This document shows, piece by piece, positions 69 to 60,611 of a stretch of 60,682 bases of DNA. Under the pieces are notes generated by a model that ran no database searches, was not told the DNA's origin, and saw only the letters and a list, made by a program, of their open reading frames with translations. Numbering within the stretch: position 1 is the stretch's first letter; the number at the start of each line of letters is the position of its first letter. The position numbers and the translations under genes are program-made. The stretch spans positions 1 through 60,682 of the forward strand of contig CANQDM010000002.1 of assembly GCA_947591505.1 (NCBI GenBank). Direction: 5' to 3'. Source of the stretch: an uncultured Bacilli bacterium (GTDB lineage Bacteria; Bacillota_I; Bacilli_A; RF39; UBA660).

Positions 69-76
69 CCCCCCCC
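69..76. repeat. C8/G8 homopolymer tract (TA-C8-GG) 70 nt beyond the recombinase stop codon
   Basis: Read directly: atatattaCCCCCCCCggtattataa; near-identical TA-C8-AG at 50769..50780. Confidence 0.9.
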
Positions 77-34533: not shown

Positions 34534-34535
34534 GA

Positions 34536-35657: not shown

Positions 35658-35791
35658 ATAAATCACCTCTGCAAGTGATTTATATCCTATCACAGTTATT
35701 TTATATTAGGTACTATGTATTTATACAAAGAAATTTGCAAAAATACAAACTTTTAATTTAAAGTAAATAAAAAATATTATTCTATTTTTTA

Positions 35792-37748: not shown

Positions 37749-37749
37749 C

Positions 37750-43700: not shown

Positions 43701-46700
43701 CTAATCTTTTTAAGCCATTTTCATTTTCTTTTAAATATTCATAATCCATAACTAAATCCAATTTTTCTTGATCAATTAATAAATCTCTATAATTTGGATT
43801 AGCAATTATAGATCTTAATGATGATAATGCTAAACTTAACCCTTCTTTACCAAATTTACCACTGTATGGGTTATCAGTCATAATGGTATCTACATTATTA
43901 TTTATAAAATTAATTAAAGTAGTCTCTAAAAAGTCAATTTGTTTTGATATAACAGAAATATCACCATCTAATGATATACTTTTTATGTATGGAATATATT
44001 CACTTAGTTGAGGATTATTTAAAAACACTTTGCTTTGCATTCCATATTTATATCTTATCGCATCCATTAAAATATATATGTCTTGTTCTTCAAAATTCAC
44101 TTCGATATTTTTAGATAATTTATTTTCCAATTCATAAAAATATTCTGTATCACTATAAAATTCAGATGATTCATTGTGCCAAAGCCAAGTTTCTTGTTCA
44201 AAAGTTCTAATCTCTTTTAAAATTCTTTCTTTATAAGCAGAATATTTTTTCAATCCAAAGTTGTAAGTAATATCTTCTTTAATATGTGTAGCATCACTTA
44301 AAACACTATCATACAATTTTTTATAATAATTTTCTGCCTTTATTGTATCAATTTTTATTGGTAAACCTTGGTTAAATTTAATTAACTCTTCACCTTTTAA
44401 AGAATAATAAAATCCTAAACTATACCTACTACTATCTTTAACAAAATCAAGAGAAAATGATGGATCATATATAACTACTGGTTCTGTTCCATAACCATTT
44501 GGATAAATTAAATTATAAGCATGATTTTCACCATTTCTAATACCTGATGCAAATTCAGAATCAATTCCTAAAAATTTAAATAAATTATGAGCAAGTCCAG
44601 CTTTTTCTGAACAAAATGCACAAGAATTAGCAATAATATCTCTTATAGAAACTTTTCCATCTTCTAAATGACTTGCATAACAATCAAGTCTTTTAAATCC
44701 TACATCATTTGAAGGTAAATAGTTATTTATAATTTCAAATATTTTAGTAAATAAAATTGGCTCATTATAATCATTTCCACTTTTTAAACTATTAATAAGT
44801 TCAATATAAGGTGATATATCATCATATACTAAGTCTGGACAGTCATGATTCATAATTTTATCAGCAGGTTTAAAATGAATAACCTCTGAAATGAAATTTT
44901 GAAAACTATCAGTATAATTTTGTCCCACAGTTTTTTCTTCACTAATACTTTCAAGTTCACTTAATCTTTCTTTAACAAATTCTTCAATTTCAGCAGGAGT
45001 CTTAAGATCAAAAATTCTTTCTTTTATTTTTTCTTTTAAAGGAATAGTATCCTCTGCATTTTCTGATGAATTATTTGAAGAAGGTGAATTTTCTGATTCA
45101 AGGGATGAATTTAAAATTTCTTCTATTCCAGACAATTTACTAGTTAATTCTTCACTTGTTACAGATTCACCATGAATAAAAGCCGAATCTAATTTTGCAT
45201 AATAACTAAATTCATTTGTTGAGCCATGCATTTCATTCTTAATATTTAATACAAATTCCACATCTATTTTATTAATCAACTCATAAATGTTTTGAATTTT
45301 TTGCATATTTGTACTTAGAACAAATGAATCGCTTACTGTAGTCCCAATTACTGAATTTAATATATTAAATAATTCACTATCATAATTATGAGGATAAAAA
45401 GCTATAGAGTATGGAATATCTCTTGATAAACTTTTTTGAAAAGAAAGGTCAAAATCATAACCATCCAATGCACTTAAAATACTTGGTAAATATTTAGAAA
45501 ATGTTGGAGTAATCTTGAAAGAAATATAAGGTGAATGTTCACCATATTCACCAATATGCCCTCCACAACTTGCATGTGTTTCAATACCATTTTGATAAGA
45601 TGTTAAAAGTAATGCTTCAAGTGCTTTATTTCCTTCAGCAAAATCATGAGCTGCTTTACTATAATCATCAATATCGGTTATATCAATTGGCTTACCATTA
45701 TTCATTCCCTTACTATCTGTATATATTTTTACATCTTTAAGAATTCCTCTTAATCTAGCTTTTGCTTTATCTTTCATATATTTAGAAATTTGCATTTCAA
45801 TAGTTCCATGTCTTAAGAAACTGATTTCGCTATCTGTTAATACTTCTCCATTTTTAGATTTTTGAACAACATCATAATATGCTTGTAATTCGCTACGATT
45901 TATTTCTAATACTTGAGCAAATTGTTGTGCTTTTGTCGTTCCATTCAATTTATTATACATATTATTAGCGATTGCATAACTTGCTCTTACAGTTGTTTTA
46001 GTACCTCCAAACGAACCAAAAGTTATACCAGATACAAATCCACCTAAAAATGCTTGAAAGGCTTGATTACTAAAATCTTTCATAGTTTTTATTAAAGCAG
46101 TATTTTCATCATCACCGTTTAAAATATAATTATTAATAGATTGAGTATAATTGCTTAAATCTTTTGCAATAAAGATATCAGCAACATAGTTTAAAATTTC
46201 TGTAGTAAATTCTTCTTCACCTTCAACAAATCCTTGACTTAAAGCTGATGCTCCCACATAAAAACTTTTAGTAACTAAATTAGCAATTGTTGGATTACTA
46301 ATATTGCTAGCAATTTTATTAGTTAATTTTAAAACATTTTCACTTAGTTTTTCTTCTAAATTCAATAAATGACTTACTGAATAGCTCTCCATTGCTGTTT
46401 CAACAACAGAAGATGTAAATGCTAAAGCAACAGCTTCACCATCTGATAGTCCTCTATCTAAAGCATCATTTAATGTAGAAACATAAGCTCTTGAACCCAT
46501 TGTTGCTGCACTTATTAAAGGTGTTGCTACTCCTCCAGTTGCTACACTAATTCCAATTAATTCAAGACTATCTATCATACTCATTCCTGTACTATACAAG
46601 AAAGATAAAGTTTCACTATTCTTAGCAATATCAGAAGCAACTTGTGTTCTCCATATATCACCAGAACTATATACATCTACTCTTCTTATTTTTTGACCAG

Positions 46701-48765
46701 TAAAATATGAATTTAGAGAATAATACATTGCTCCAATTCCTTCAAATGGAGTTATTAAAACAGATCCAATAGATGCTAATATTGGATGTTCACTAGCATA
46801 TTCTTGATCTTCCAATGTTTTATTGGCTAACCATCTTTTATCAACTTCACTTGATAATACATCATTTAAATAATTATATGCACCATCTATTCCTTCTGTA
46901 TTATAAATATAATTAAATATTAGTTTTTCTTCTTCGCTAACAAATGGTAGCCATTGTAGATAATGGTTAAATAAATCATCATTTGCAGTTACAGGAAATA
47001 AAACTCCATCAACAGATAAATAACCATTAGAAAGGTTTCCACCTTCACCATTAAGCATACAACTAATTAAATTTACAATTTCTTCTTTACTAGTTACTCT
47101 AATAGTTGGTATAGCATCATAATCAGATGGAGATATTATTTTATTTTTATTTGCTTCTTGTAATGCTTTTATTGTTTCTAGAGCTTCACTATTAAAAGTA
47201 TTATTAGTATCAAAATCATCTGCATGCAAATATGAATCAACATTATTAATGTAATAATCAACTTCTTCTTTTATTGCATCACATATGTTTTGATATGTAC
47301 TAACTTTGACCTCTAATTGCTTTATTTCTGAATTTATGTTTTCTAAATTTTCATTTCTATTATTTACTAAATCACCATATTTATCTGATATTGAATAAAA
47401 GTATTGTTCTTGAGCTTCTGTTTCTGTCCAACGATAAATTGTTTTTTCATTTTTTGAAAATAAAGGTTTAATAGTTTCTGCAGTTAAATTGGCTCGTAAT
47501 TCTGCAAGCAATTCGCTATCTTTATACATTTCTTCAAAGGTTAGCGGTGTATATGAAACATCATCTACATAACCAGACATATAAGGATCTTCATATTTAT
47601 AATTGATATTACCATTTTCATCAGTATATTCCCATGCTACAACTGTAGAATTTAAAATGTCATCTAAATTTTCGCCCATTTTAAGTCTAGTTATAAAATT
47701 CATTATAGCATCTATTTCATAATTTTCTGCTTCTAATTTTTGCTTATATAATTCATTTAATCTATTAGTATCATCATTTATTGCTTGCTCTAAATCTGTT
47801 ATATTATTATATTCTAAACCATATGCTTGCAAATATGAAGCATATATCATATCTACTCTTCTAGTATTATCTTCATCATTTTCTATTTGTTCAAATAATT
47901 CTTCTTGACTTATTTTTCCGTTTAATACTTGCTCTATATCCATCTCATTTAAGCCAAAAGATTCTAATAACATTCTATATGTATCAACATCTATTTCTGT
48001 AACAACTTCTTGTCCCCAGGAATTGATGGTAGTTATAGTAACTTTTGTAGCATCTTCAACATTATTATTACTAGCAGAACTATCAAACGAATTTTCAGGC
48101 ATATCAAAAGATACACCAGCACCACTATTGTTATTACCTTGATTAGCATTTTGATTGCTAGTCATATTAACATTAGTAGAAGATGATGTTTGATTAGATG
48201 TAGCATTATTATTTTTAGCATTAAATGGTGTTTTATTATCTTGTGGCTTAACATTCATATCATTTTGTGCTTTTGATTCATTATTACTTGATAAGCTATT
48301 TCCATTCATAGTAGAATTGGAATTTTGATTTGTAGAATTAATATCAGGTGCTTTTGAAGAATCAACATTAGTTGAATTATTTATATTACTACTATCATTT
48401 AAATTAGAATTATTACTAGTTTGATTAACTTGTTGTTGAGATGCATCATTAACTTGAGAAGATCCAGAAGTTGTAGGACCAGAAGAAGCACTTGTATTTG
48501 TGGTTGATACTGAATCAGCTGTTTTGCTTTCATCCACAGTAGTCGAAAAATCCATAGTTTCTGTTTGACTACTCGATCTTCCTCCATATGTATTTGCAGT
48601 TCCAGCATTATAATTTTGGGGTGCTTCGCTTTGTGTAGAAGTTAAACTAGCTTTTTCACTTTTATTTGCATCAGAATATAACTTATCTAATTTTACATCT
48701 TCAAAATCTACTGATGCATTAACGCCATCTATTTGTTTTGCACCAGATACACCAAAATTACTCAT
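37750..48765 (-). CDS. giant (3,671 aa) multidomain putative secreted effector/toxin
   Basis: Uninterrupted 11-kb ORF. S/N/T/Q-rich N-terminal ~200 aa. Transglutaminase-like Cys1385/His1415/Asp1434. HEFGH at 2374-2378 (41632..41646). C-terminal papain-like Cys3464 (GCAYMA), His3625 (GGHAMLIT), SSWSG. Confidence 0.8.
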   Translation of the reverse strand: MSNFGVSGAKQIDGVNASVDFEDVKLDKLYSDANKSEKASLTSTQSEAPQNYNAGTANTYGGRSSSQTETMDFSTTVDESKTADSVSTTNTSASSGPTTSGSSQVNDASQQQVNQTSNNSNLNDSSNINNSTNVDSSKAPDINSTNQNSNSTMNGNSLSSNNESKAQNDMNVKPQDNKTPFNAKNNNATSNQTSSSTNVNMTSNQNANQGNNNSGAGVSFDMPENSFDSSASNNNVEDATKVTITTINSWGQEVVTEIDVDTYRMLLESFGLNEMDIEQVLNGKISQEELFEQIENDEDNTRRVDMIYASYLQAYGLEYNNITDLEQAINDDTNRLNELYKQKLEAENYEIDAIMNFITRLKMGENLDDILNSTVVAWEYTDENGNINYKYEDPYMSGYVDDVSYTPLTFEEMYKDSELLAELRANLTAETIKPLFSKNEKTIYRWTETEAQEQYFYSISDKYGDLVNNRNENLENINSEIKQLEVKVSTYQNICDAIKEEVDYYINNVDSYLHADDFDTNNTFNSEALETIKALQEANKNKIISPSDYDAIPTIRVTSKEEIVNLISCMLNGEGGNLSNGYLSVDGVLFPVTANDDLFNHYLQWLPFVSEEEKLIFNYIYNTEGIDGAYNYLNDVLSSEVDKRWLANKTLEDQEYASEHPILASIGSVLITPFEGIGAMYYSLNSYFTGQKIRRVDVYSSGDIWRTQVASDIAKNSETLSFLYSTGMSMIDSLELIGISVATGGVATPLISAATMGSRAYVSTLNDALDRGLSDGEAVALAFTSSVVETAMESYSVSHLLNLEEKLSENVLKLTNKIASNISNPTIANLVTKSFYVGASALSQGFVEGEEEFTTEILNYVADIFIAKDLSNYTQSINNYILNGDDENTALIKTMKDFSNQAFQAFLGGFVSGITFGSFGGTKTTVRASYAIANNMYNKLNGTTKAQQFAQVLEINRSELQAYYDVVQKSKNGEVLTDSEISFLRHGTIEMQISKYMKDKAKARLRGILKDVKIYTDSKGMNNGKPIDITDIDDYSKAAHDFAEGNKALEALLLTSYQNGIETHASCGGHIGEYGEHSPYISFKITPTFSKYLPSILSALDGYDFDLSFQKSLSRDIPYSIAFYPHNYDSELFNILNSVIGTTVSDSFVLSTNMQKIQNIYELINKIDVEFVLNIKNEMHGSTNEFSYYAKLDSAFIHGESVTSEELTSKLSGIEEILNSSLESENSPSSNNSSENAEDTIPLKEKIKERIFDLKTPAEIEEFVKERLSELESISEEKTVGQNYTDSFQNFISEVIHFKPADKIMNHDCPDLVYDDISPYIELINSLKSGNDYNEPILFTKIFEIINNYLPSNDVGFKRLDCYASHLEDGKVSIRDIIANSCAFCSEKAGLAHNLFKFLGIDSEFASGIRNGENHAYNLIYPNGYGTEPVVIYDPSFSLDFVKDSSRYSLGFYYSLKGEELIKFNQGLPIKIDTIKAENYYKKLYDSVLSDATHIKEDITYNFGLKKYSAYKERILKEIRTFEQETWLWHNESSEFYSDTEYFYELENKLSKNIEVNFEEQDIYILMDAIRYKYGMQSKVFLNNPQLSEYIPYIKSISLDGDISVISKQIDFLETTLINFINNNVDTIMTDNPYSGKFGKEGLSLALSSLRSIIANPNYRDLLIDQEKLDLVMDYEYLKENENGLKRLERKYSDLIEKIWENSLDSSIQDKNFSVLFSNIFGPLNYQADNLINRQDQHSTSLITSNLIATYGSTTRRIGFIYPSDSHIISASAWDLNSNVFGKGIKNKEKGTILVTPAALEQEGMKITLENGESPYFSTQYNEVLVDSKPCGILYIGYGEKDLNSDYNKAILMAKKYNLPFYEIDMLDYEDTLTANDKYYIAYHSIYSYLGLSIDSFLGTDDNSVKLFTLIIDIVNKNKELIADKFLELKRNNKLSKENIQLVLEENLDSITKSILDSIKSGNLETNSYIRRINLLEQELNEAIEDLNKINESGSLGTYGIDIEYHDDLKFVSDDILKSFANFSKNISIFPNDMENVQEIVIPLSLSDLQRKYSTRIYFDIKTREFYDYDAMRNLILERIAEENSLEYYTKLENKIFAAETMIKYPDSFEFSISEDEFFKINTDVFTFLLDPRTILFKLSSGMNVYVVDNFESLEKVTNDVNLFNEEYFLYDITSKKIYKPEDLEEVFKQRKEQYIIDEIEMANDLASQNESYEIKLESLSDIEKIVDKLDNSTLSYVVLSEHADYKIFIPTTLEELETIKKLYSSDDKILFYTKKIGLQEYEETKKYFREGLYDSVASKTFSNLMSAVLEKAKLNGKSDVATIIANIEKIKTLNKNFGVKFTLAEEGYTAKNEPIFVGYKAYDNFNEMRVFFHEFGHSMFDAIFKAKIPRNYLSVLSKVQNHISKNSDLISRFFKNFYFAYGSVAEQTEQIFLNNYEKILTEQVAALDKQTLQDILFDSTDGHATFDDNALENYRKEVFENEARKIKSNIKSNLLNQQTVCYPDISGLFHDLFLGSDKLVLVNQFGEIERLAPDTTIYQHEEDYYKNVAAISLSLNEQVAAYTTLKFMDAIYGTQNINVLENLLGKDYIDFMENIWNGFVNFFETGNISDIDVLTDEDELIFSPYIKELLDGNILAPFSDTIEGIDTIVLSSKNISGNPNILHNNYNFDQIVFNINAINCFANKKIVIKVPNKIFLELFEARIEDINNKDYITLCYDGDFEQKMFSINEIDKLFERIDECSISPIISDVIDNSIKIPKLANAYYMEMSPSSVEHLDDSERIINVRNRVFKGGLAFGKNNPIAMATNENSIYRVTGMNQVTDILNSGFVRPKEGKLKGGHINEVFWTQGSDKTYYYDKRPVLEVSVDKLADNQMGAISINDLQAIWIFDEQQGKYVNRLKELKRLIEINNSKIELNANIITTYLVSNKFDDANILRILEESQLLENRLISTINTNGEIDNLIKEIKNITEETLPQGYKDLTELKERIIDKLIETNSLLKLSNQQFYDLIEDDLIMLRKVIGHEKLTYFITKNLADLPNKFASLFDGLSNDELLKIFDNEEITNYFDSLSDEQFLEIAKAFIKYNSNVIVISNNFRNKLFKIDPKLLSNFFSTVFFDLGKTLEADIDSGTIFIEEFLKNYGNDDIMINNPQLAAKVLQCLPFGFHGEYDSQKEVLRNFDKKAKQNLCNKIISNALIEIPTDATIRKDGYFDIKYTIDGIEYIKKSMKSYGKLDLLTELVSQYDAILSDKLKIVSITEDVIKNTLSINDNTKDGLNVITLEINGEIEKHLVRFRYGSTDLTRLARSKQINSVKIISIEPFIQSTFDLKVDDKYSVYKLTYTIDNQEFEQYFPTIGDTLYLDNFITLNDLYNATNFKIEPINLDSLPKSQFNINKYQNSNEIFKDNAYGGNQSDVREIVVSALSGEQLSEINRQKSEILIKIIKNYYPDAQETDLKNIAKAYEECGCAYMAIANSFITYMNSIENGSNIFLEKMGFNLSVTDGITKSPNLEAVALDFYLHIHKVVENNSTIDELLKNSHGMSAMIYETVTNSYFASKGINVELNHNMFDLEDYKKDIVINSLNNKGFWILGSSGFDLESLDNNLTVGDDAALTHIKIEGKTLKNIGGHAMLITDMFENGDLMVSSWSGKYRFIPNSHTTRISIYSIIFNIINGG

Positions 48766-48805
48766 ACCTTCACCACCTTTTACTCTGTTTTATTTTTATT
48801 CAATT

Positions 48806-49048
48806 TTAATATGATTTTCTTAATGTACTATATCTACTATTAGAAATGGATGTTGCAGAACTTGATAAAGATTTTTTTATGTTATTAATTGCATCACCAT
48901 TATATGTTTTATCATTTATTAAAATTGTTCTATTCATAGTATTTTCTAATTGTTGAACACTTTGATTTAAATTATTTATTTGATTAGTTATTAAATATAA
49001 TCTATACGAAATATTTGCATATTTTTTCTTTTTTACTGCATCATCCAT
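48806..49048 (-). CDS. small helical protein (effector-associated, candidate chaperone/adaptor)
   Basis: ATG at 49048 with GGTGA 8 nt upstream, right after the previous stop; the call rests on position. Confidence 0.45.
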   Translation of the reverse strand: MDDAVKKKKYANISYRLYLITNQINNLNQSVQQLENTMNRTILINDKTYNGDAINNIKKSLSSSATSISNSRYSTLRKSY

Positions 49049-49049
49049 T

Positions 49050-49346
49050 TTAAATATCACCATCAAATCTATTTATTGTTTCTATACTTACTCTATCATA
49101 TCTAGCAATTGCATTACTTAATATATTCACATATTTAGCTCTTTTAGTTGAAATTTTAGAAACGCTAGTTTTACTATCGATTATTTTTTCTAAAAAATCA
49201 GCCGTATTAGATGTATTATAATTTCTTAAACATAATTGCATTTTTTCAAATATTTTACCTAATACCTGCTTTTCTTCTTCTGAATAATAATTAATTTGTT
49301 CAATATTTTTTTCTAATAACGATTTATTTAAAATATTCTCATTCAT
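49050..49346 (-). CDS. small helical protein (98 aa, effector-associated)
   Basis: Tiled ORF between the WXG-like genes and the giant gene. Confidence 0.5.
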   Translation of the reverse strand: MNENILNKSLLEKNIEQINYYSEEEKQVLGKIFEKMQLCLRNYNTSNTADFLEKIIDSKTSVSKISTKRAKYVNILSNAIARYDRVSIETINRFDGDI

Positions 49347-49349
49347 ATA

Positions 49350-49925
49350 CTATTCTCCTAAATAAAAGTCAAAATCATTTATTTTAATTGCTTCTAAAGC
49401 ATTTATTTTGTTTTTTACTTCTTTTTCTATATTTTCTATTTTATTAAATAAATTAACTACTTGGGTTTTAATCGTAGATAGTTTATTTCTTACACCAACA
49501 ATTACATCTTTTTGAAGTGATATGCTATATATTTCAGAATAATAAAAACTTCTATCAATGTAATTAAAACTATTAATTATATTTGATGCTTTATTATAAC
49601 AATCATCTATTTGACCAAGTAAGGAATTTTTATTATTCAAATTACATTTTATTTTGTTTCCAAATTCATGGTATTTAGTATATACTAATTCAAATATTTC
49701 TTTTTTAGATTTTAGTGCTTGCAAAAACAAATCAGATTCTTGCTTTTCCAAATAAATCTCATTATCAAATTTAACAGAATTACCATCTTGCCAATTAATA
49801 CAACTATCTTTTAATTGATTAAATAGATTTAATTTAATATTTTCGTATTCATCAATTAAAGCGGTTAATCCCATTATGTTATTGCTTAATTCTCCCATAT
49901 CAACATCTATTATAATTACCACCAT
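49350..49925 (-). CDS. WXG-motif-containing helical protein (191 aa; start uncertain)
   Basis: INWQDGNSVKF resembles the W-x-G turn of WXG100 proteins; no good RBS at any of the first three ATGs. Confidence 0.45.
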   Translation of the reverse strand: MVVIIIDVDMGELSNNIMGLTALIDEYENIKLNLFNQLKDSCINWQDGNSVKFDNEIYLEKQESDLFLQALKSKKEIFELVYTKYHEFGNKIKCNLNNKNSLLGQIDDCYNKASNIINSFNYIDRSFYYSEIYSISLQKDVIVGVRNKLSTIKTQVVNLFNKIENIEKEVKNKINALEAIKINDFDFYLGE

Positions 49926-49998: not shown

Positions 49999-50682
49999 CT
50001 ATTCACCAGTAGTATTATTGAAAGCATCTGAGATACCTGAAGATACTTCTTGGTATTTTTGAACAGCTTTATTAATTTGACCTTGTAATGATTCTTCTCC
50101 ATCAGTTAAATATTTAAATATTTTATGAAGTTCACCACTTACAGTTACAAAGCATTGTTTTAATGCTTCACCTTGTCCATGACCAATGAAAGCACTTTCA
50201 GCATCTAGATTATTTGCTAAAGTTTCAAGATCAGATTTGATTCCTTCTTCAACTTCACCTAATCTACTTGCAATTTGACTTGCTTGTCCTTCTTCAATTG
50301 TTACATTACCAGCATTTTCAGGTTGAATATCAGAAACATTTAAAGTTAGATCTACAGTATCGATTGTTGCCAAGCTAGGAATTTCTCCTCCTGTATTTTC
50401 AGCCCAATTCTTTCCTGCACTTTCAACTGCTCCTCTATAAGCATCAAATGCTTGTGTAATATTTTCTCCAGATGCTTTTACTGTTTGAGCAAATCCATTG
50501 AAGAAATCTACTGCTTCTGGAGCATACCATACTGTAGACATAGGAACAATAATATCGCTATGTAATCTTTCTACGATATTTTGTCCAGCTTGTTGTGCAG
50601 TAGAATTAATTACATCTCTTAGTGCATTTACTTGTTCACAATTATATCCAGATGTTTCTCCAGATCCACCAAATAAACCCAT
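49999..50682 (-). CDS. WXG100-superfamily / LXG-like T7SS substrate candidate (227 aa)
   Basis: ATG at 50682 with GGGAGGAG 6 nt upstream. Helical, A/Q/E/G-rich and GC-richer than its surroundings. VWYAPEAVDFF lies at the position of the WXG turn. First gene after the promoter. Confidence 0.55.
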   Translation of the reverse strand: MGLFGGSGETSGYNCEQVNALRDVINSTAQQAGQNIVERLHSDIIVPMSTVWYAPEAVDFFNGFAQTVKASGENITQAFDAYRGAVESAGKNWAENTGGEIPSLATIDTVDLTLNVSDIQPENAGNVTIEEGQASQIASRLGEVEEGIKSDLETLANNLDAESAFIGHGQGEALKQCFVTVSGELHKIFKYLTDGEESLQGQINKAVQKYQEVSSGISDAFNNTTGE

Positions 50683-50764
50683 AATTTCACTCCTCCCATT
50701 ATTAAAAAGTTTATTTTCCGATAAACAAAACATTACTACGAATACCTTATCTATCTATAAGAAA

Positions 50765-50794
50765 ATTATACCCCCCCCAGAAACCAATTGTCAA
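50765..50794 (-). promoter_or_regulatory. sigma-A-type promoter TTGACA-N18-TATAAT with a G8 tract in the spacer
   Basis: Minus strand reads TTGACAattggtttctGGGGGGGGTATAAT, about 80 nt upstream of ATG 50682. Confidence 0.6.
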
Positions 50795-50803
50795 CAATAT
50801 TTA

Positions 50804-50820
50804 CAAATTTGTACACAAAT
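50804..50820. repeat. 17-bp direct repeat CAAATTTGTACACAAAT, left copy (candidate target-site duplication)
   Basis: Perfect match to 52531..52547; contains the internal dyad ATTTGT-AC-ACAAAT. Confidence 0.9.
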
Positions 50821-52530
50821 GTAAAATTTTTATTTAACTTCCCGAATTTTTATTTTTGTGCATTTAACTTTGGAAATTTATGGGGGATTAAATTAAATAC
50901 AAAAAATTTCAAAGCATATCATTGATCAATAGGCAGGTTCAAATACGCAATAATTTTGTCAAATAGATTTTATCTGTTTGACCAGCAAAGCGTTCAAGTA
51001 TTTGAATCTGGGTTCCTGTTGTCAATGAGGAATTTGAAATTTTTTATATTTAATTTTATAATATCTTTTCGTATCTTAGCTTAGAAAGGATTTTATTTTT
51101 ATGAAAAATGCTAAGAAAAACAAACATTTATCTTTTGAAGATAGATGTGTTATTGAAGAATTTTTAAATTATGGCTATTCTTTCTCTAAAATTGCCAATC
51201 GTTTATCCAAAGATAGAACTACTATTGCTAGAGATGTTAAAAAACATCGTTTTTTAAGAACTACTGCCTTTTGCAATAATCTTCCTTGTTGTTTTGAAAA
51301 CAAACCTCCTTATGTTTGCAATGGTTGTAAAAAATTTAATTATTGTAAAAGAATTCGTTATTCTTATTCTCATGATATTGCTTATAATGAATACAAAAAA
51401 GCTTTAATTAATCATCGTTCTCATTTAAAAATTACCAAAGATGAAATTGCTTCTATTAACGATATTATTTCTCCTTTAATGATTCACAAACATCATTCCG
51501 TTAATCAAGTATATATTGAACACCCTGAATTATTACCTTTTTCTAAATCCACTTTCTATAAATATATCGATTTAGGTATCCTTAATGTCCGTAACATTGA
51601 TTTACATAGAAAAGTTAGATTTAGAGTTAAAAAAGAATATGATTATACTCGACTTAAAACTAATCCTAAAATTAAAATCGCTCGTTTTTTCACTGACTTT
51701 AATTCTTATATGGAATTTCATTCTAATGCTTCTGTTGTTGAAATGGATACTGTTATTGGCACTTCTGGTGGTAAAGGTGGTAAATGTTTCCTTACTCTTT
51801 TATTTAGACAATATAACTTTATGCTCATTTACTTACTTCCTTACAAACAATCTAAATATGTTATTCAAGTTTTTAACCATCTTAAATCTCTATTAGGTAT
51901 TGATGAATTTAAACGTTTATTTGAAGTTATACTAACTGACAATGGCACAGAATTCTCTGACCCTGATTCTATTGAAATGGATTTTAACACTGGTGAAAAA
52001 GTTTGTTCCCTTTTCTATTGTGATCCAAATTGTTCTTGGCAAAAGGGTTCCATCGAAAAAAATCACGAATACATTCGTTATGTTTTACCTAAAGGTTCTT
52101 CTTTTGCTTCCTTAACTCAAGATGATTGTTACTTACTTGCTTCTCATATCAATTCTATTCCTAGAATTTCTTTAAACAATCATTCTCCTTATGAGTCGAT
52201 TTATCTTTTTTTAGGTCAATCTAATTTAGATAAATTACAAATAAAAAAGATCGAGTCTGATGACATTGATCTTTCCATTAGATTACTTAAAAAGTAATCT
52301 TCTCTAAGCTAAGATACATTACAATTTACCATCTTATTTCCGGGCAGTTACTCTCACTCAAAATTTTTTTATTCAACTGCACGTCTTTTTGAATGCAATA
52401 ATTTTTTCGCTTCGTGTCTATATTTTAATATTTTTTATCCTTTTTTGCAACTTTTTCTCACTTTTTTCGGGCATTTACCTATATAATCCTTTTTTCTTAT
52501 TTACCCGTGCACTTTCTTTTTAATTTAACG
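50821..52530 (+). mobile_element. IS30-family insertion sequence (outer boundaries uncertain)
   Basis: Bounded by the 17-bp direct repeat. Contains a TTGAAA-N17-TATAAT promoter (51034..51062), a 15-bp perfect IR GTATCTTAGCTTAGA (51071-51085 / 52303-52317) and the only long plus-strand ORF in 58 kb. Confidence 0.6.
51101..52297 (+). CDS. IS30-family DDE transposase
   Basis: N-terminal HTH (LSFEDRCVIEEFLNYGYSFSKIANRLSKDRTTIARDVKKH) and catalytic core with MDTV...LTDNGTEF...EKNHEYIR. Confidence 0.85.
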   Translation: MKNAKKNKHLSFEDRCVIEEFLNYGYSFSKIANRLSKDRTTIARDVKKHRFLRTTAFCNNLPCCFENKPPYVCNGCKKFNYCKRIRYSYSHDIAYNEYKKALINHRSHLKITKDEIASINDIISPLMIHKHHSVNQVYIEHPELLPFSKSTFYKYIDLGILNVRNIDLHRKVRFRVKKEYDYTRLKTNPKIKIARFFTDFNSYMEFHSNASVVEMDTVIGTSGGKGGKCFLTLLFRQYNFMLIYLLPYKQSKYVIQVFNHLKSLLGIDEFKRLFEVILTDNGTEFSDPDSIEMDFNTGEKVCSLFYCDPNCSWQKGSIEKNHEYIRYVLPKGSSFASLTQDDCYLLASHINSIPRISLNNHSPYESIYLFLGQSNLDKLQIKKIESDDIDLSIRLLKK

Positions 52531-52547
52531 CAAATTTGTACACAAAT
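52531..52547. repeat. 17-bp direct repeat, right copy
   Basis: Perfect match to 50804..50820. Confidence 0.9.
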
Positions 52548-52582: not shown

Positions 52583-52607
52583 AAAGAGGACATATCAAGT
52601 CCTCTTT
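52583..52607 (-). terminator. intrinsic terminator after the essC/esaB-like operon
   Basis: 9-bp perfect stem AAAGAGGAC/GTCCTCTTT, 7-nt loop, TTCATTTT tail on the minus strand, 26 nt after the stop. Confidence 0.6.
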
Positions 52608-52632: not shown

Positions 52633-52899
52633 TTACTCTTTAGATGTCAAAAGTATTAACTCAGTTATATTTCTTATATTTGTGTCGATAACGACTTTAT
52701 TATTATTGTATACTTCACTAGTTAATTTATTCATTAAAATATAATTTGCATTTGGGTTTAAAACTCCTCCTGTTAAATCAGAAACTGATTTAGCAAGCAT
52801 TTTTTTTATTTTCCAAACAATTTCATTAACAGGTATAAACACATCAAATGAATAACCGATTTCCGGAACAAATAATTTTATTAAAACTTTATTATTCAT
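52633..52899 (-). CDS. esaB: YukD/EsaB-like ubiquitin-fold T7SS protein
   Basis: 88 aa. VLIKLFVPEIGYSFDVFIPVNEIVWKIKKML...ILMNKLTSEVYNNNKVVIDTNIRNITELILL fits the beta-grasp YukD pattern. ATG 52899 overlaps the essC stop by 8 nt. Confidence 0.6.
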   Translation of the reverse strand: MNNKVLIKLFVPEIGYSFDVFIPVNEIVWKIKKMLAKSVSDLTGGVLNPNANYILMNKLTSEVYNNNKVVIDTNIRNITELILLTSKE

Positions 52900-55800
52900 C
52901 TTCTTCATTCTCCTCAGACAAAATATCATTAAATTCTATTAATTTAATAAGTTCCGCATTGCTTTCACTTATATAAAATCCATAATTATTTTGATATTTT
53001 TGTTGCATTTCTTTTGTTATTTTGGCAATTCTAAAGTTTTGTTGCTCTGCAAATCCTTTACCTACCCATATACCATCTGTACTATTTTTAACTTTTGAAT
53101 ACCATACATCCATATCTAAAGTTTTAAAATTCTTTGTGCTATCACATAAAATCATATTTGAGTTTTCACTTGATTTTATTTCATTAAATAATGCTTCCAT
53201 ATTCGCTGATTCTGCTTTTGCTTTTATTTTTTCTAAACCATAGAATATATATAACACATTTGCTGATTTATGTTGTTTTTGAAAATCAGTTAATGCTTTT
53301 ACTGCATTTTCTAAGTTGTCACTATAATAATTAATCTTTTTATTGTTATATTCTTTATTAGCAGATAATAATTGCTTGTTACCATCAATAAATATTATAG
53401 TTAAATTTGGTATTCTTAAAAGAACATCAAGTAATGAATCCATAAAACAATTAATATAAGTTAATTTATTAGATGATATAGATGTTGCAATAGAAGATTT
53501 AAAATCATATTTAATTGTTTTTAATGTATCTTTAGAAATACCAATAGGTACTTTTTCTAATGTAGATATTTCCTTTTCAATTATATCAAATGTAATTTTT
53601 TCTGGTAATGTTGGAATAACTTTTGCGTTGTCTTTAAATACTTCTTTTGCTTTTTCAGTAAATTTTTCAAGATATTCATTTAAATTATTTTCTTCAGAAA
53701 CAATAGAAGAAGTTTGAAATTCATGTATTCCATCAACATTAGCAAGCCCTCTTCCTAATCTATCTCTTGGTTTAATTTTGCTTCTCATATCAAACACACC
53801 ATAATAGTCTGAAGAATCTGTTAAATGTAAAGCATATTTATTATTAAAACATTGTGAAACTCTTCTTCCAATAGTTGCAGGCGCACTACATGTTAATATT
53901 AAATATATTCCATATCTTTCACAATCTCTACCTATTGAAGCAACATCTTCATAAATTGTATTATATACTTCTAAAATACTTTCATAGTTGTTAAGAATGA
54001 AAATAACTTGAGGTAACTTTTTATCATTTTTTAAATTATAATTTTCTAAATTACCATAATTTAAAAGTAATGATTTTCTAGTTTTTAATTCATCTTGAAT
54101 TAATTTAAATAAGTTTTTAATTCCTTCATCATCTTCCATATATATGATTCCACCAAATTGAGGTAATCTACTGAACATTCTTAATTGCTCAGAGCCATAA
54201 TCAACAGCATATATATTAATTTCATTAGAACTATGCGATTTACAAATTGAATAAATAATTGAATCAAGTAAATTTTCTCTTTCTATTTCATCATTTCCAT
54301 ATATTATTGTATTTCCATTATCTTTAAGAGAATAAACCAACAAGCCTTGTTCTTGTTTTTCTGGTGCATCATACTCACCAACGATTGCTTCAACATTATA
54401 AGGTTTAGGACTAAATTCATATTTTTTCTCTAAATTATCAACTAAAATATTAGGATCAATGTCATTTAGCCATAATCTTTTTGCTTTTTTGTTTGCTGTT
54501 TTTGCTACTTCAATTATATTTTTCATAATTGCTGCAATTTGTTCACCTTGTGCTTCAACTTTAATATTGTTACCAGCTTGAATACTTTTAATTATACTAC
54601 CTGTTTCATCAATAAAATTAATGCTCTTATCAACTTGCTTTACTATTTTTTCTGATGGATAATACTTTGCACCACACCATGCTGATTGTCCTAGTGCAAA
54701 GTATTCATCATATCCAACTTGCAAATAGAATCGACCTAGTTGTTTTAAACTAGCTGCTTCAGGTCTTTTTAATACTTCTTTACTATCAGAAACATCTTGT
54801 ACTTTTAAACAAACTCTAAACTTTGTATTAGACCAAATTTGATCATTAACTACACCACTAGGTTTTTGTGTTGCTAATATTAAATGCACTCCTAATGAAC
54901 GACCAATACGAGCTACACTTATCAAATTATCCATAAATTCAGGTTGTTGTTCTTTTAATTCAGCAAATTCATCACATACTATAAATAAATGAGGTATTGG
55001 CTCTGTAAGTTTTCCTTCTTTATAAAATCTTTGATATTTATAAATATCAATTGTACTTTCGCCTAAAGAATCTCTAGCTTCATTAAATATTTTTTGTCTT
55101 CTTTTAATCTCACTATCAATACTTACCAAAGTTCTATCCATTTCAGCTTTATCTAAGTTTGTTATTGTTCCAGCTAAATGTGGAAGTGTTATACCTGTTG
55201 CTTTATTTTCAAAAGCACCAGCCAAGCCACCACCTTTATAATCAATTAATATAAATGCAACATCATCTGGACTATAATTTACAGCCATTGATAAAATGTA
55301 AGTAATTATAAATTCTGATTTACCAGATCCTGTCATACCAGCAATTAAACCATGTGGTCCATGAAATTTTTCGTGTAAATCTAAATACATTAAATTTCCT
55401 GTTGCATCTACACCAATTTCTGCTTTCAAACTTATTGTAGAATCATTAGTATCCCAACGATTCATTATATTAAGTTGTTCTACTTTACCTATTTTTTCCA
55501 TTTCTAAAAATGATATAGAATCAGGTAATTGACTATCTTCTTCATCAAACTCCACAGGTATATTTGATATAACTTTAGCAATATCCATCATATTAATTCC
55601 ATAATGAAGTTCATGTTGAAAATTCACTATTTCTTGATTATCAAAGCTATTTTTCAAAAGTGTTGGTGATGAACCTAAATTGATAAAGTTATTAAATTTA
55701 CTTGGTAATTTACTAATTTGATTTTCCATAATTAATACAGAATAACCAATATTATTATCTACTTCAGAAATTAAATCAATAAAATTCAAATTTTTAACTT

Positions 55801-57469
55801 GAGAATAATCATCAGTTATTATTAAATAATATGGTTTAAATAATCTCGGCTCTTCTTTAGAAAGTTCAATTCGATTTTGAAGTTCCATATTTAAATAGTC
55901 AATAATTGCTTTAGCATTTTCTCTATTTGTTGAAAAGAATCTAACACTTTTATCATTAGAAAAAGAATGATTTAAATATTTTATATATTCCCATTTTTCT
56001 TCATTTTCTTTATTTGTAAACACTATTATTTTAAGATCATCATAACTATAAAATGTAATTAATTGTAAAATAATATTTTGAATTAAACAATAATATTCAT
56101 GATTATTTCCTAAAAGGGCTGTTAATTTATTTTTGAACAAAGAATATTTTATTGGTACATTATGAATATATTTAAACTCTTCTACCATTGCATCAGCTTG
56201 TTTTCTTAAATCATCTTCTTCAACAGTAAAACCTTCATCTGGATAGTTGACTTTTGCATCTAGCAATTCATCACCAATTCCAAGTCTTATCTCTAAAAAA
56301 TCATTTTGATCAATTCTTTTAGACCAAAAATTAAATTTACTAGTTGAATATATTCTATTTAGACAATCTTCTATTGTAACTAGATTTTCATTTAATATAC
56401 TTTTTTGTAATTGTTGCTCTTCTTTTAATTCTTCTTTTTTGGTATCCAAATACTTAGTATATTTTTCAATTAAATTTTTCTTTCTTACTTTTCTTAAATG
56501 CTTATTAAAAAATTTAGTTATCATTGGCCATAATAGCATTGATAAAACCATTGCGCCAGATGTTGCTAATGAAGGCCAAGATTTTTGTAAAGTGGTTTCT
56601 CCTGTTGTAATTTTAACAATATTATTAGCAAGCATTATTCCAGAAACCAATCCCATAGTAAGCATAGGTCCAACAGTTAAAATTAAAGGCATTTGGTCTT
56701 CACCTTCAGGTCTTGGTGGAGGGCTTAAATTTATTTCTTTTGTTGTTATATTTCTTCTCATACGAGGTGCTTTTGAAAAATATTGTTCTTTAGTGTATAA
56801 ATCGTTATCTTTTACTTCAAAATCTTTTGGTGCTTCACCATATGGTATTACAATTTTTTTAAGACTAGTTTTTTCCAAATCAATTAATACATTATTACCT
56901 GGATTATTTATAAAAAGAATCTTATTTAGAATTAATATTTTTAATCCAAAAATATGTATTTCATCACCAATACTTATATTTATATTATTATTTAAATTAC
57001 TATTTTTTATTATTCTAATGTTATTTTTGTAAATTGCATATTCCCCTAAACTTAGTAAAATACTATCGTTAGACATACTAATTTCAGCAGTGGAATCACC
57101 CAATAAAGGACAATTATATTTTATATTACAATTTTCAGCTGTACCAATAATTAAATCTGTATTTTCATCAAATTGATAAGAAGAAAGGCTATTATCAAAA
57201 GAATTAGTAACATATATTAAATATTTTGCAGTTGCTTTTTGAAGCATATAAAATTTTTCTGCTTCCAACTGTAAACTCTCGACAATGTTATTATTTTCAA
57301 TTACCACAACATCACTAGTTGAATTTAAATACCAAGCACCATTTTTAGCTTCTATATTAATAAGTTTCGATTCTTCATCTATATTTTCATCAAAACTAAA
57401 ACTTCCCATTACCTTTTGTGGAAGGGAAAAATTAAGTATTTTGGTATTTAAATATAAATATATTTTCAC
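52892..57469 (-). CDS. essC: EssC/YukB-type FtsK-SpoIIIE ATPase of a type VII(b) secretion system
   Basis: 1,525 aa. N-terminal FHA-like region, two TM helices, then HGLIAGMTGSGKSEF Walker A (about 55318..55340) and FIVCDEFAELK Walker B. Two further ATPase-sized segments follow. GTG start with AGGAGA upstream. Confidence 0.88.
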   Translation of the reverse strand: MKIYLYLNTKILNFSLPQKVMGSFSFDENIDEESKLINIEAKNGAWYLNSTSDVVVIENNNIVESLQLEAEKFYMLQKATAKYLIYVTNSFDNSLSSYQFDENTDLIIGTAENCNIKYNCPLLGDSTAEISMSNDSILLSLGEYAIYKNNIRIIKNSNLNNNINISIGDEIHIFGLKILILNKILFINNPGNNVLIDLEKTSLKKIVIPYGEAPKDFEVKDNDLYTKEQYFSKAPRMRRNITTKEINLSPPPRPEGEDQMPLILTVGPMLTMGLVSGIMLANNIVKITTGETTLQKSWPSLATSGAMVLSMLLWPMITKFFNKHLRKVRKKNLIEKYTKYLDTKKEELKEEQQLQKSILNENLVTIEDCLNRIYSTSKFNFWSKRIDQNDFLEIRLGIGDELLDAKVNYPDEGFTVEEDDLRKQADAMVEEFKYIHNVPIKYSLFKNKLTALLGNNHEYYCLIQNIILQLITFYSYDDLKIIVFTNKENEEKWEYIKYLNHSFSNDKSVRFFSTNRENAKAIIDYLNMELQNRIELSKEEPRLFKPYYLIITDDYSQVKNLNFIDLISEVDNNIGYSVLIMENQISKLPSKFNNFINLGSSPTLLKNSFDNQEIVNFQHELHYGINMMDIAKVISNIPVEFDEEDSQLPDSISFLEMEKIGKVEQLNIMNRWDTNDSTISLKAEIGVDATGNLMYLDLHEKFHGPHGLIAGMTGSGKSEFIITYILSMAVNYSPDDVAFILIDYKGGGLAGAFENKATGITLPHLAGTITNLDKAEMDRTLVSIDSEIKRRQKIFNEARDSLGESTIDIYKYQRFYKEGKLTEPIPHLFIVCDEFAELKEQQPEFMDNLISVARIGRSLGVHLILATQKPSGVVNDQIWSNTKFRVCLKVQDVSDSKEVLKRPEAASLKQLGRFYLQVGYDEYFALGQSAWCGAKYYPSEKIVKQVDKSINFIDETGSIIKSIQAGNNIKVEAQGEQIAAIMKNIIEVAKTANKKAKRLWLNDIDPNILVDNLEKKYEFSPKPYNVEAIVGEYDAPEKQEQGLLVYSLKDNGNTIIYGNDEIERENLLDSIIYSICKSHSSNEINIYAVDYGSEQLRMFSRLPQFGGIIYMEDDEGIKNLFKLIQDELKTRKSLLLNYGNLENYNLKNDKKLPQVIFILNNYESILEVYNTIYEDVASIGRDCERYGIYLILTCSAPATIGRRVSQCFNNKYALHLTDSSDYYGVFDMRSKIKPRDRLGRGLANVDGIHEFQTSSIVSEENNLNEYLEKFTEKAKEVFKDNAKVIPTLPEKITFDIIEKEISTLEKVPIGISKDTLKTIKYDFKSSIATSISSNKLTYINCFMDSLLDVLLRIPNLTIIFIDGNKQLLSANKEYNNKKINYYSDNLENAVKALTDFQKQHKSANVLYIFYGLEKIKAKAESANMEALFNEIKSSENSNMILCDSTKNFKTLDMDVWYSKVKNSTDGIWVGKGFAEQQNFRIAKITKEMQQKYQNNYGFYISESNAELIKLIEFNDILSEENEEDE

Positions 57470-60605: not shown

Positions 60606-60611
60606 CCCCCC
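60606..60611. repeat. C6 tract in TA-C6-GCG context
   Basis: Read directly: aacataCCCCCCgcgagtcaat. Confidence 0.8.

What the first reader, a model, noticed from the sequence alone, without database searches (positions are those of the whole stretch)
50765..50794. Consensus promoter of the effector operon carries a G8 tract in its 18-nt spacer (possible phase-variable switch)
The minus strand reads TTGACA-attggtttctGGGGGGGG-TATAAT. Both hexamers are perfect consensus, and the 18-nt spacer is one longer than optimal. Eight of the spacer bases are a homopolymer. In DNA this AT-rich an 8-nt G run is very unlikely by chance. Homopolymer tracts in -35/-10 spacers are a classic slipped-strand mechanism for switching or tuning expression. 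Loss of one G would give the optimal 17 nt.
Basis: partly seen in the sequence, partly recalled or inferred. Interest (0 to 1): 0.65.

Follow-up and report, generated by a model that had tools for sequence, protein, structure and literature searches.

The report
G8 tract in secretion-operon promoter spacer
A perfect-consensus promoter in front of a type VII secretion substrate operon on a gut-bacterial conjugative element really does carry a non-random run of eight Gs in its spacer, but the run is exactly eight long in all nine independent assemblies, so it has the build of a slippage switch with no sign yet that it switches.

Summary
The minus strand 50794-50765 reads TTGACA-attggtttctGGGGGGGG-TATAAT, with an 18-nt spacer. 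G/C runs this long are far above chance in this 24% GC contig.

The promoter is native and very probably real. It follows a terminator, lies 76 nt upstream of a tight operon next to an EssC (T7SSb) gene, and its -10 and leader are conserved in relatives.

The G8 is a recent feature of one lineage. The closest relative (97% protein identity) has TTTACA-17 nt-TATAAT with no G run, and none of about 50 other loci has one.

The switch prediction failed the only test I could run. All nine independent assemblies, at least five haplotypes diverged 0.1-2.3%, with or without an adjacent IS30 insertion, carry exactly G8. That sample cannot exclude a rare minor allele or variation within a population.

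Two other G-runs in the contig (G8, G6) also directly abut TAnnnT hexamers in intergenic DNA (P about 1e-4), so "G-run next to -10" recurs on this element.

Best reading: a selected spacer module held at fixed length that sets promoter strength. Its capacity to act as a slippage rheostat is real but unproven.

The parts
50789..50794 (-). -35 hexamer TTGACA (6/6)
   Evidence: It aligns with TTTACA in the closest relative L014.
50771..50788 (-). 18-nt spacer attggtttctGGGGGGGG. The G8 occupies 50771-50778 and directly abuts the -10.
   Evidence: The G8 is identical in 9 of 9 assemblies. It aligns with AT-rich 17-nt spacers in relatives.
50765..50770 (-). -10 hexamer TATAAT (6/6)
   Evidence: It is conserved in position in L014, L001 and L015.
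50745..50759 (-). Conserved leader motif TATAGATAGATAAGG at about +1 to +20; contains CTTAT..ATAAG dyad
   Evidence: It is conserved in window, L014, L015 and L001, and TAGATAAG-like in more distant relatives. There is no Rfam match.
49999..50682 (-). First gene of the operon, 227 aa (RBS GGGAGGAG at 50690-50697). The predicted fold is two long helical hairpins with an invariant Trp52 in the first turn, and there is a weak WXG100 signal.
   Evidence: gene called as 227 aa; TIGR03930, E 0.002, below cutoff; pLDDT 90; no significant fold match.
48806..49925 (-). Three small genes (191, 98 and 80 aa) packed with gaps of 1-3 nt; no family match
37750..48765 (-). Giant 3671-aa ORF, the presumed secreted substrate, with no detectable domain. 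A 212-aa ORF (37122-37760) overlaps its end.
   Evidence: Relatives carry ORFs of up to 4474 aa in the same position.
50804..50820 (.). Promoter-proximal copy of the 17-bp target-site duplication CAAATTTGTACACAAAT. It ends 9 bp upstream of the -35.
   Evidence: D4, 100% identical copies. The empty site is seen in L009, L010, L012, L013 and L028.
50821..52530 (+). 1710-bp IS30-family insertion sequence (transposase 51101-52297), present in only some haplotypes
   Evidence: NF033563, 105.9 bits against a cutoff of 80; HTH_38.
52531..52547 (.). Distal copy of the 17-bp target-site duplication
52583..52607 (-). Terminator-like hairpin after the 88-aa gene, which isolates the downstream operon
   Evidence: It is conserved in L009-L013.
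52633..57469 (-). Upstream unit: EssC (T7SSb ATPase, 1525 aa, 52892-57469) and an 88-aa protein (52633-52899)
   Evidence: FtsK_SpoIIIE; TIGR03928, 932.5 bits against a cutoff of 778.
69..76 (-). Second G8 in the contig. It is intergenic, directly followed by TAATAT, and lies about 40 nt upstream of an RBS and ATG at about 27.
60606..60611 (-). G6 run. It is intergenic, directly followed by TATGTT, and sits inside TTGACT-17-TAATAA upstream of the MerR-family gene 59275-60318.

Best explanation
The site is the native sigma-A-type promoter of a substrate operon attached to a T7SSb (EssC) locus. The locus sits on a conjugative element of an uncultured, low-GC gut Bacilli lineage. In this one lineage the promoter was recently remodelled: the -35 improved from TTTACA to TTGACA, an operator-like dyad over the -35 decayed, and the AT-rich 17-nt spacer was replaced by an 18-nt spacer ending in G8 directly against the -10. 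The tract is held at exactly eight in every sampled strain. In practice it therefore behaves as a selected spacer module of fixed length. It sets promoter geometry and strength: an 18-nt, G-rich, stiff spacer on otherwise perfect hexamers gives a deliberately sub-maximal promoter. It does not behave as a switch that differs between strains. Slippage to G7 or G9 must happen at some rate, and would retune the promoter (up at 17 nt, down at 19 nt) rather than silence it, but nothing shows that such variants are used. Shown: the sequence, its non-randomness, the conserved promoter position, the derived state, and the length invariance. Inferred: that transcription starts here, and the effect of the spacer on strength.
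For: Promoter reality comes (terminator upstream, RBS and ATG 76 nt downstream, tight operon) and (conserved -10 and leader in L014, L015 and L001). The derived state comes from L014, at 97% protein identity, which has TTTACA-AATTATTTTTTAAGGAT-TATAAT. None of about 50 other loci has a G/C run of 6 or more upstream. Remodelling is shown by the perfect 14-1-14 dyad over the -35 in L014, against a 7-5-7 remnant here. Invariance: 9 of 9 assemblies from 8 other samples have G8. They represent at least 5 haplotypes that differ by 0.1-0.8% downstream and 1.2-2.3% upstream, and by presence or absence of the IS. The same haplotypes do carry one other homopolymer indel (A5/A6 near 48797), so indels can fix in this population, yet none fixed at G8. 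Non-randomness of G-runs is shown.
Against: A pure G8 is intrinsically slippage-prone, and its acquisition in 24% GC DNA is what a contingency locus looks like. Exact analogues are proven switches (porA and tp0126, PMC7864442). Nine low-coverage consensus assemblies give only a 95% upper bound of 28% on a variant allele, or about 45% if only 5 haplotypes are independent. The Bordetella fimX promoter tract varied in only 7 of 90 strains and still changed expression 3.8-fold (PMC1891110). No experiment shows that an 18-nt G-rich spacer lowers activity in this organism.
Confidence: 0.45

Rival explanations
1. This is a true contingency promoter. The G8 slips at high frequency (above about 1e-5 per generation), producing G7, G8 and G9 subpopulations with high, medium and low expression of the secretion substrates. 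G8 is simply the state favoured in the sampled gut habitat, so it dominates every consensus assembly.
For: The anatomy is identical to the porA and tp0126 poly-G spacers (PMC7864442). The tract is non-random and recently acquired. Two more G-runs abut -10-like hexamers on the same element, as expected of a multi-locus phasome. The regulated products are large secreted or surface-type proteins. T7SS output is tuned by homopolymer indels in M. tuberculosis (PMC11898584). The operator dyad was lost in the same lineage, as if stochastic control had replaced repressor control.
Against: Length polymorphism between strains is the operational criterion used for such loci (PMC5084427, PMC1891110), and it was tested and not seen: 9 of 9 assemblies were G8 across at least 5 haplotypes. 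Three Logan contigs run straight through the tract, whereas assemblies do break at the polymorphic IS junction. Other homopolymers (T8, five T7, A7) are also invariant, so the host does not look generally prone to slippage. G8 is at the short end for fast switching. With consensus hexamers, a change of one G cannot give an OFF state.
Confidence: 0.3
2. The G-run directly 5' of a TAnnnT hexamer is a fixed cis-element. A trans-acting factor, or a particular RNA polymerase holoenzyme or sigma region, reads it and co-regulates three promoters of the element. Its homopolymer nature is incidental to its function.
For: All three G-runs of 6 or more in the contig are intergenic (P about 0.002) and each is immediately followed by TAnnnT on the coding strand (G8-TATAAT, G8-TAATAT, G6-TATGTT; P about 1e-4). 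The length is invariant. Two of the three sites lack a usable -35 at 16-18 nt, which hints that they do not depend on a -35.
Against: No sigma factor or obvious candidate regulator was found apart from MerR-, LysR- and HTH-type proteins. Run lengths differ (8, 8, 6), which is unusual for a protein-binding site. I know of no precedent for a G-run used as an extended -10 element. Only three sites are available, and two could not be examined in other assemblies.
Confidence: 0.15
3. This is a neutral accident. The G8 arose by chance mutation or a local repair event and hitch-hiked with a successful conjugative element. It has no functional meaning beyond making the spacer 18 nt.
For: The tract occurs in only one lineage. 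The sampled haplotypes are closely related (99.5-100% over 832 nt), so shared ancestry alone could explain the identity.
Against: The chance expectation for such a run is 2e-4 to 2e-2 per window. Three runs share the same placement next to a -10-like hexamer. Converting TAAGGAT-like spacer sequence to G8 needs about five A/T-to-G changes against the AT mutational bias. The flanks have diverged by up to 2.3% while the tract stayed pure.
Confidence: 0.07
4. This is a MerR-type promoter. The over-long spacer is bound by the MerR-family protein encoded at 59275-60318, which activates transcription by twisting the spacer.
For: A MerR-family gene lies on the same contig, and the spacer is longer than optimal.
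Against: MerR-type promoters have 19-20-bp spacers containing a dyad operator (established knowledge). Here the spacer is 18 nt and contains no dyad.
Confidence: 0.02
5. This is a sequencing or assembly artefact, for example poly-G from two-colour Illumina chemistry.
For: Poly-G artefacts exist. Both ends of the contig lie about 70 nt from G/C runs.
Against: The tract is internal, flanked by unique sequence, and reproduced identically in 8 other assemblies from several studies and assemblers.
Confidence: 0.01

Closest known systems
Neisseria meningitidis porA promoter (poly-G between -35 and -10)
   Same: In both, a G homopolymer inside the -35/-10 spacer of a sigma-70-type promoter sets the spacing, so tract length sets transcription level (PMC3639595 abstract; PMC7864442 discussion).
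   Different: The porA tract varies between and within strains and moves expression from high to none. Here the length is invariant in 9 of 9 assemblies, the tract is short (G8), the hexamers are perfect, and the host is a low-GC Gram-positive-type gut commensal, not a Neisseria.
Treponema pallidum tp0126 and tpr promoters (poly-G)
   Same: In tp0126 the poly-G lies between -35 and -10 and transcription is optimal when the spacing is 17 nt. For tprE, tprG and tprJ, tracts of 8 or fewer Gs permit transcription (PMC7864442). The tract lengths are comparable (7-11).
   Different: Those tracts show measurable length heterogeneity within isolates (G7-G11). No heterogeneity is visible here at the level of assemblies.
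Bordetella pertussis fim2/fim3/fimX promoter C-stretches
   Same: Several promoters in one genome carry a homopolymer just upstream of the -10. fimX is C7 in most strains and C8 in only 7 of 90, with a 3.8-fold effect on expression (PMC1891110). That is a mostly fixed tract acting as a fine tuner, which is the behaviour I think most likely here. The contig likewise has three G-run/-10 junctions.
   Different: The fim promoters depend on the activator BvgA and have a conserved 'fim box'. No activator site or shared box beyond G-run plus TAnnnT is evident here.
Mycobacterium tuberculosis ESX-1-associated homopolymer variants (espR 5'UTR, espACD regulatory region)
   Same: Homopolymer tracts in regulatory regions tune the output of a type VII secretion system (PMC11898584).
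   Different: That system is T7SSa (ESX-1) in a high-GC actinobacterium. The best-studied tract acts post-transcriptionally in a 5'UTR, not in a promoter spacer, and variation among clinical isolates is documented.
Mycoplasma hyorhinis vlp promoters (poly-A in the spacer; recalled from memory, not checked here)
   Same: A homopolymer in the -35/-10 spacer switches surface-protein genes in a Mollicute. Mollicutes are the cultured group nearest to these reduced 'Bacilli/Tenericutes' gut lineages.
   Different: That tract is poly-A, not poly-G, it has a proven ON/OFF phenotype, and it controls lipoprotein genes rather than a secretion operon.
IS1630 of Mycoplasma fermentans (IS30 family)
   Same: The adjacent insertion here is an IS30-family element with an unusually long duplication (17 bp) of a partly palindromic target. 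IS1630 copies are flanked by duplications of 16-26 bp and target inverted repeats (PMC3317919, citing Calcutt 1999).
   Different: The element here is a different one (1710 bp, 398-aa transposase). Its terminal inverted repeats are weak, and transposition has not been shown.

Membership tests
Slipped-strand phase-variable promoter (homopolymer in the -35/-10 spacer; porA / tp0126 / vlp type) | [quoted passage not shown] | tested here: met
   The G8 occupies 8 of the 18 spacer nt between perfect hexamers. The promoter position is conserved in relatives. Promoter activity itself has not been measured.
Slipped-strand phase-variable promoter (homopolymer in the -35/-10 spacer; porA / tp0126 / vlp type) | Tract over-represented relative to genome composition | tested here: met
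   The expectation is 0.0002-0.016 runs of 8 or more per window. Shuffles give 0.15 matches to G7 against 4 observed. There are no runs of 6 or more in 157 kb of related DNA.
Slipped-strand phase-variable promoter (homopolymer in the -35/-10 spacer; porA / tp0126 / vlp type) | Tract length differs between related strains or assemblies | tested here: not met
   G8 is present in 9 of 9 assemblies and at least 5 haplotypes. The power is limited: the 95% upper bound on a variant allele is 28-45%.
Slipped-strand phase-variable promoter (homopolymer in the -35/-10 spacer; porA / tp0126 / vlp type) | Length heterogeneity within a population or clone; reversible high-frequency change | not testable with these tools
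   No raw reads are available. The only indirect hint is that the contigs traverse the tract without breaking.
Slipped-strand phase-variable promoter (homopolymer in the -35/-10 spacer; porA / tp0126 / vlp type) | Expression level changes with tract length | not testable with these tools
   This needs reporter fusions or transcript quantification.
Type VIIb secretion locus (Firmicutes Ess/Yuk type) | EssC-type multi-domain FtsK/SpoIIIE ATPase | tested here: met
   TIGR03928 T7_EssCb_Firm scores 932.5 bits against a cutoff of 778.4. Pfam FtsK_SpoIIIE also matches.
Type VIIb secretion locus (Firmicutes Ess/Yuk type) | WXG100-family substrate | tested here: inconclusive
   The C-terminal half of the 227-aa protein matches TIGR03930 at E 0.002 with 18 bits, against a cutoff of 44.85. 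The AF2 model shows two helical hairpins with an invariant Trp in the first turn. Foldseek finds no significant match.
Type VIIb secretion locus (Firmicutes Ess/Yuk type) | Other core components (EsaB/YukD, EssA, EssB, EsaA) | tested here: inconclusive
   An 88-aa protein sits where EsaB/YukD usually lies, but it has no Pfam or NCBIfam match even at E of 1 or less. No EssA, EssB or EsaA was recognised among the ORFs scanned. The small ORFs at 57.6-59.2 kb were not all scanned.
IS30-family insertion sequence | IS30-type DDE transposase | tested here: met
   NF033563 scores 105.9 bits against a cutoff of 80, and the protein has an N-terminal HTH_38 domain.
IS30-family insertion sequence | Discrete element flanked by a target-site duplication, with an empty site in relatives | tested here: met
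   There is a perfect 17-bp direct repeat 1727 nt apart. The uninterrupted site is present in L009, L010, L012, L013 and L028.
IS30-family insertion sequence | Terminal inverted repeats | tested here: inconclusive
   Only a short, imperfect match is seen at the ends (GTAAAATT against GTTAAATT, read). No long terminal inverted repeat was reported.
MerR-type spacer-distortion promoter | 19-20-bp spacer containing a dyad operator | tested here: not met
   The spacer is 18 nt and contains no dyad.

The most novel reading that the evidence does not exclude
The conjugative element carries its own small 'phasome': three promoters in which a G-run directly abuts the -10. One drives the T7SSb substrate operon, one a MerR-family regulator at one end of the element, and one a gene at the other end. 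Slippage at these runs would diversify secretion-effector output and element regulation among cells of an uncultured gut commensal. That would be the first slipped-strand control of a T7SSb substrate operon, and of a Gram-positive-type conjugative element.
Probability: 0.2. Interest if true: 0.65.

Novelty: new member of a known kind. Interest (0 to 1): 0.4.

Why it matters
If the tract does slip at a useful rate, bacterial competition or host-interaction factors exported by a type VII system, and carried on a mobile element in uncultured gut bacteria, would be under stochastic, heritable volume control. That mode of control is so far documented for pathogens such as Neisseria, Treponema, Bordetella and M. 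tuberculosis, not for commensal Firmicute-like lineages or for conjugative elements. If the tract is fixed, as the present data suggest, it is still a clean natural example of a promoter rebuilt within one lineage: the operator was lost, the -35 was perfected, and the spacer was lengthened by a G-run. It is also a caution that a homopolymer in a spacer is not by itself evidence of phase variation. Either way the question can be settled cheaply from existing public read sets.

Tried and rejected
1. I scanned for the promoter with any tract length (TTGACAATTGGTTTCT-N3-16-TATAATTTTCTTATAG) in genome contigs, metagenome contigs and viral contigs and found 0 hits each. BLAST of the region against plasmids and phages also found nothing. 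The only samples came from exact-protein look-ups.

2. I tried to reach the second G8 (69-76) in other assemblies. The serine recombinase is not on record with either a V or an M start. The sortase contigs are too short. A gapped pattern scan found 0 hits.

3. I used the last look-up on the IS30 transposase to obtain host DNA for a genome-wide census of G-runs. It returned only the known contig and the IS assembled on its own.

4. I looked for convergent acquisition of G/C tracts in other lineages of the operon family and found none in about 50 loci.

5. Rfam found nothing for a leader RNA. The window has no tRNAs.

6. The function of the operon products could not be assigned. Pfam, NCBIfam and PDB sequence searches of the giant protein and the small proteins gave nothing, and Foldseek with the confident 227-aa model gave only generic helical bundles.

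7. I tested whether the contig ends overlap or form terminal repeats, as they would for a circular element or att sites. There was no significant match.

8. The MerR-type spacer mechanism is rejected because the spacer is 18 nt and has no dyad.

9. The idea that the IS brought the promoter is rejected. The empty-site haplotypes have the identical promoter and G8.

10. A sequencing artefact is rejected because 8 other assemblies reproduce the tract.

Full report
**Observation.** The minus strand at 50794-50765 reads TTGACA-attggtttctGGGGGGGG-TATAAT. Both hexamers are perfect, the spacer is 18 nt, and its last eight bases are G and touch the -10. It is the only 12/12 promoter match in the window. 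A perfect promoter alone would not be remarkable, since 0.23 are expected per window and 19 of 100 shuffles contain one. The G-run is remarkable. The window is 24.4% GC, and runs of 8 or more are expected 0.0002-0.016 times. Dinucleotide-preserving shuffles give 0.15 matches to G7 against 4 observed, which correspond to two tracts. In 157 kb of DNA from related loci there is no G/C run of 6 or more outside this tract.

**Context.** The window is a complete 60,682-nt MAG contig. It carries a conjugative element of a low-GC Firmicute-like organism. The recognisable genes are a large serine recombinase, sortase, a VirD4-type coupling protein, a VirB4-like ATPase, an M23 peptidase, a T4SS pilin, a SpaA/thioester adhesin, SSBs, a primase, a methylase, AbiEii and a SUFU-family protein. 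Nearly all genes are on the minus strand. Upstream of the promoter lie an EssC gene of the T7SSb type (TIGR03928, 932 bits against a cutoff of 778) and an 88-aa gene, followed by a terminator-like hairpin at 52607-52583. Downstream, an RBS (GGGAGGAG) and the ATG at 50682 open a tightly packed series: 227 aa, 191 aa, 98 aa, 80 aa, a 3671-aa giant and an overlapping 212-aa ORF. The first product has a sub-threshold WXG100 signal. Its confident AlphaFold model (pLDDT 90) shows two long helical hairpins, with no significant structural match. The giant protein and the small proteins match no Pfam, NCBIfam or PDB sequence. 'T7SS substrate/effector operon' is therefore an inference from context, not a demonstrated identity. 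Related loci come from gut and rumen metagenomes and from MAGs labelled uncultured Bacilli or Tenericutes.

**Is the promoter real and native?** In four close haplotypes the 88-aa gene and the 227-aa gene are separated by only 223 nt and carry the identical promoter. In the window, a 1710-bp IS30-family element (50821-52530; NF033563, 105.9 bits against a cutoff of 80) is inserted 26 bp upstream of the -35. It is flanked by a perfect 17-bp duplication at 50804-50820 and 52531-52547. The promoter therefore belongs to the locus, not to the IS. Because the target is duplicated, everything from about -61 downstream is unchanged by the insertion. Long duplications of partly palindromic targets are known for the IS30-family element IS1630 (PMC3317919). 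Across lineages, the -10 hexamer and a leader motif TATAGATAGATAA(GG) align, which supports this position as the conserved transcription start region. Rfam finds no RNA family in the leader.

**History of the tract.** The nearest relative outside the G8 lineage is L014, at 97% protein identity. It has TTTACA-AATTATTTTTTAAGGAT-TATAAT, a 17-nt spacer with no G-run. The next relative, L015-L017 at 85%, has TTGAAT-17-TACTCT. None of about 50 further loci of the family has a G/C run of 6 or more upstream of the gene. L014 also has a perfect 14-1-14 dyad over its -35, which is an operator candidate. In the window lineage only a 7-5-7 remnant is left, and the -35 has become consensus. So one lineage rebuilt this promoter: it lost the operator, perfected the -35, and gained a spacer one base longer made of G8. 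Producing a pure G8 from AT-rich spacer against the AT mutational bias argues for selection on the run itself. This last point is inference.

**The test of the switch idea.** Exact-protein look-ups recovered eight other contigs from eight samples that carry the promoter, and every one has exactly G8. The contigs fall into at least five haplotypes. They differ by 0.1-0.8% downstream, by 1.2-2.3% on the essC side, and by presence or absence of the IS. The same set shows one other indel polymorphism, A5/A6 near 48797, whereas T8, five T7, A7 and the G8 are all invariant. Assemblies break at the polymorphic IS junction but run through the tract. Length polymorphism between strains is the operational criterion for such loci (PMC5084427, PMC1891110), and here it is not met.

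**Limits of that test.** The assemblies are low-coverage consensus sequences. Some samples may come from the same study. The 95% upper bound on a variant allele is 28%, or about 45% for five independent haplotypes. In Bordetella, the fimX promoter tract differed in only 7 of 90 strains and still changed expression 3.8-fold, while 3 of 9 genotyped tracts were monomorphic (PMC1891110).

**A recurring arrangement.** The contig has only two other G/C runs of 6 or more. One is a G8 at 69-76 and the other a G6 at 60606-60611, both G on the coding strand. All three runs are intergenic (P about 0.002), and each is followed immediately by a TAnnnT hexamer: TATAAT, TAATAT and TATGTT (P about 1e-4). Only the site in this finding has a proper -35. 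This pattern says the G-run next to a -10 is a deliberate module of this element. It fits either several slippage-prone promoters, as in the Bordetella fim and Treponema tpr/tp0126 families (PMC1891110, PMC7864442), or a fixed cis-element. I could not examine the other two sites in other assemblies.

**Mechanism.** I commit to the following, at about 0.45. This is the operon's sigma-A promoter, and the G8 is a selected spacer module held at eight. It gives an 18-nt, G-rich spacer on perfect hexamers, which makes a strong but deliberately sub-maximal promoter. Slippage to G7 or G9 is physically inevitable at some low rate, and would raise or lower output rather than switch it off. A true contingency rheostat, with G8 as the favoured setting, remains a serious rival (0.30). 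A factor-recognised G-run/-10 element comes next (0.15). Neutral accident (0.07), a MerR-type mechanism (0.02; the spacer is 18 nt with no dyad) and artefact (0.01) are unlikely.

**Comparison and novelty.** In anatomy this is the porA or tp0126 type of poly-G spacer (PMC3639595, PMC7864442). In apparent behaviour it is closest to fimX, a short tract that is mostly fixed (PMC1891110). The link between homopolymers and type VII secretion has a precedent in M. tuberculosis ESX-1 (PMC11898584). It would be a new member of a known kind in a new setting: T7SSb, a conjugative element, and an uncultured gut lineage. The defining property of the kind, length variation, was tested at the strain level and not found, so I do not file it as a phase-variable locus. 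Interest is moderate. The question can be decided from existing read sets and simple reporter fusions.

Noticed in passing
window 50804-52547: A 1710-bp IS30-family element (transposase 51101-52297) flanked by a perfect 17-bp target duplication is inserted 9 bp plus the duplication upstream of the -35. It is present in the window, L011, L030 and L021-L024, and absent in L009, L010, L012, L013 and L028. Assemblies tend to break inside it, and in one sample it assembled as its own 1697-nt contig (L075).
   Followed up: yes
window 69-76 and 60606-60611: The only other G/C runs of 6 or more in the contig are a G8 and a G6 on the coding strand. Both are intergenic, and each directly abuts a TAnnnT hexamer, as the finding's tract does (P about 1e-4 for all three). 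They lie 68 and 71 nt from the two ends of the contig. That placement suggests that assembly stops near such runs, or that they mark the ends of the element.
   Followed up: partly
L014 102-130 (locus coordinates); window 50788-50806: The closest relative without a G8 has a perfect 14-1-14 dyad, ATAATTTGTAAATA-A-TATTTACAAATTAT, overlapping its -35, which is a likely repressor operator. In the window lineage it has decayed to TTGTAAA-TATTG-TTGACAA.
   Followed up: partly
window 50745-50759: A leader motif TATAGATAGATAAGG just downstream of the -10 is conserved across several lineages of the operon (TAGATAAG-like in distant ones). It contains the dyad CTTAT-AGATAG-ATAAG, has no Rfam match, and its function is unknown.
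   Followed up: partly
window 37750-48765: A 3671-aa ORF has no Pfam, NCBIfam or PDB sequence match over its whole length. Relatives have ORFs of up to 4474 aa in the same operon position (L015). It is a large uncharacterised protein family next to T7SSb EssC.
   Followed up: partly
window about 48797: The only indel polymorphism among the haplotypes is A5 versus A6 in the 40-nt gap between the 80-aa gene and the giant ORF, just upstream of the giant ORF's RBS (the extra A is in L009 and L028).
   Followed up: no
L039, L043, L047, L050, L051: Loci of this operon family sit in MAGs labelled Methanobacteriaceae, Methanobrevibacter or Muribaculaceae. These are most likely mis-binned contigs of mobile elements from low-GC Bacilli.
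   Followed up: no
window 10341-11099, 12211-12942 and 33010-35693: The element's cargo includes a SUFU-family protein (a family often seen as immunity proteins of polymorphic toxins; from memory), an AbiEii-type toxin, and a radical-SAM plus NUDIX gene pair next to a LysR regulator.
   Followed up: no
whole window: There is extreme strand asymmetry. The + strand has C 9363 against G 5472 and T 25566 against A 20281, and almost every gene is on the minus strand.
   Followed up: no
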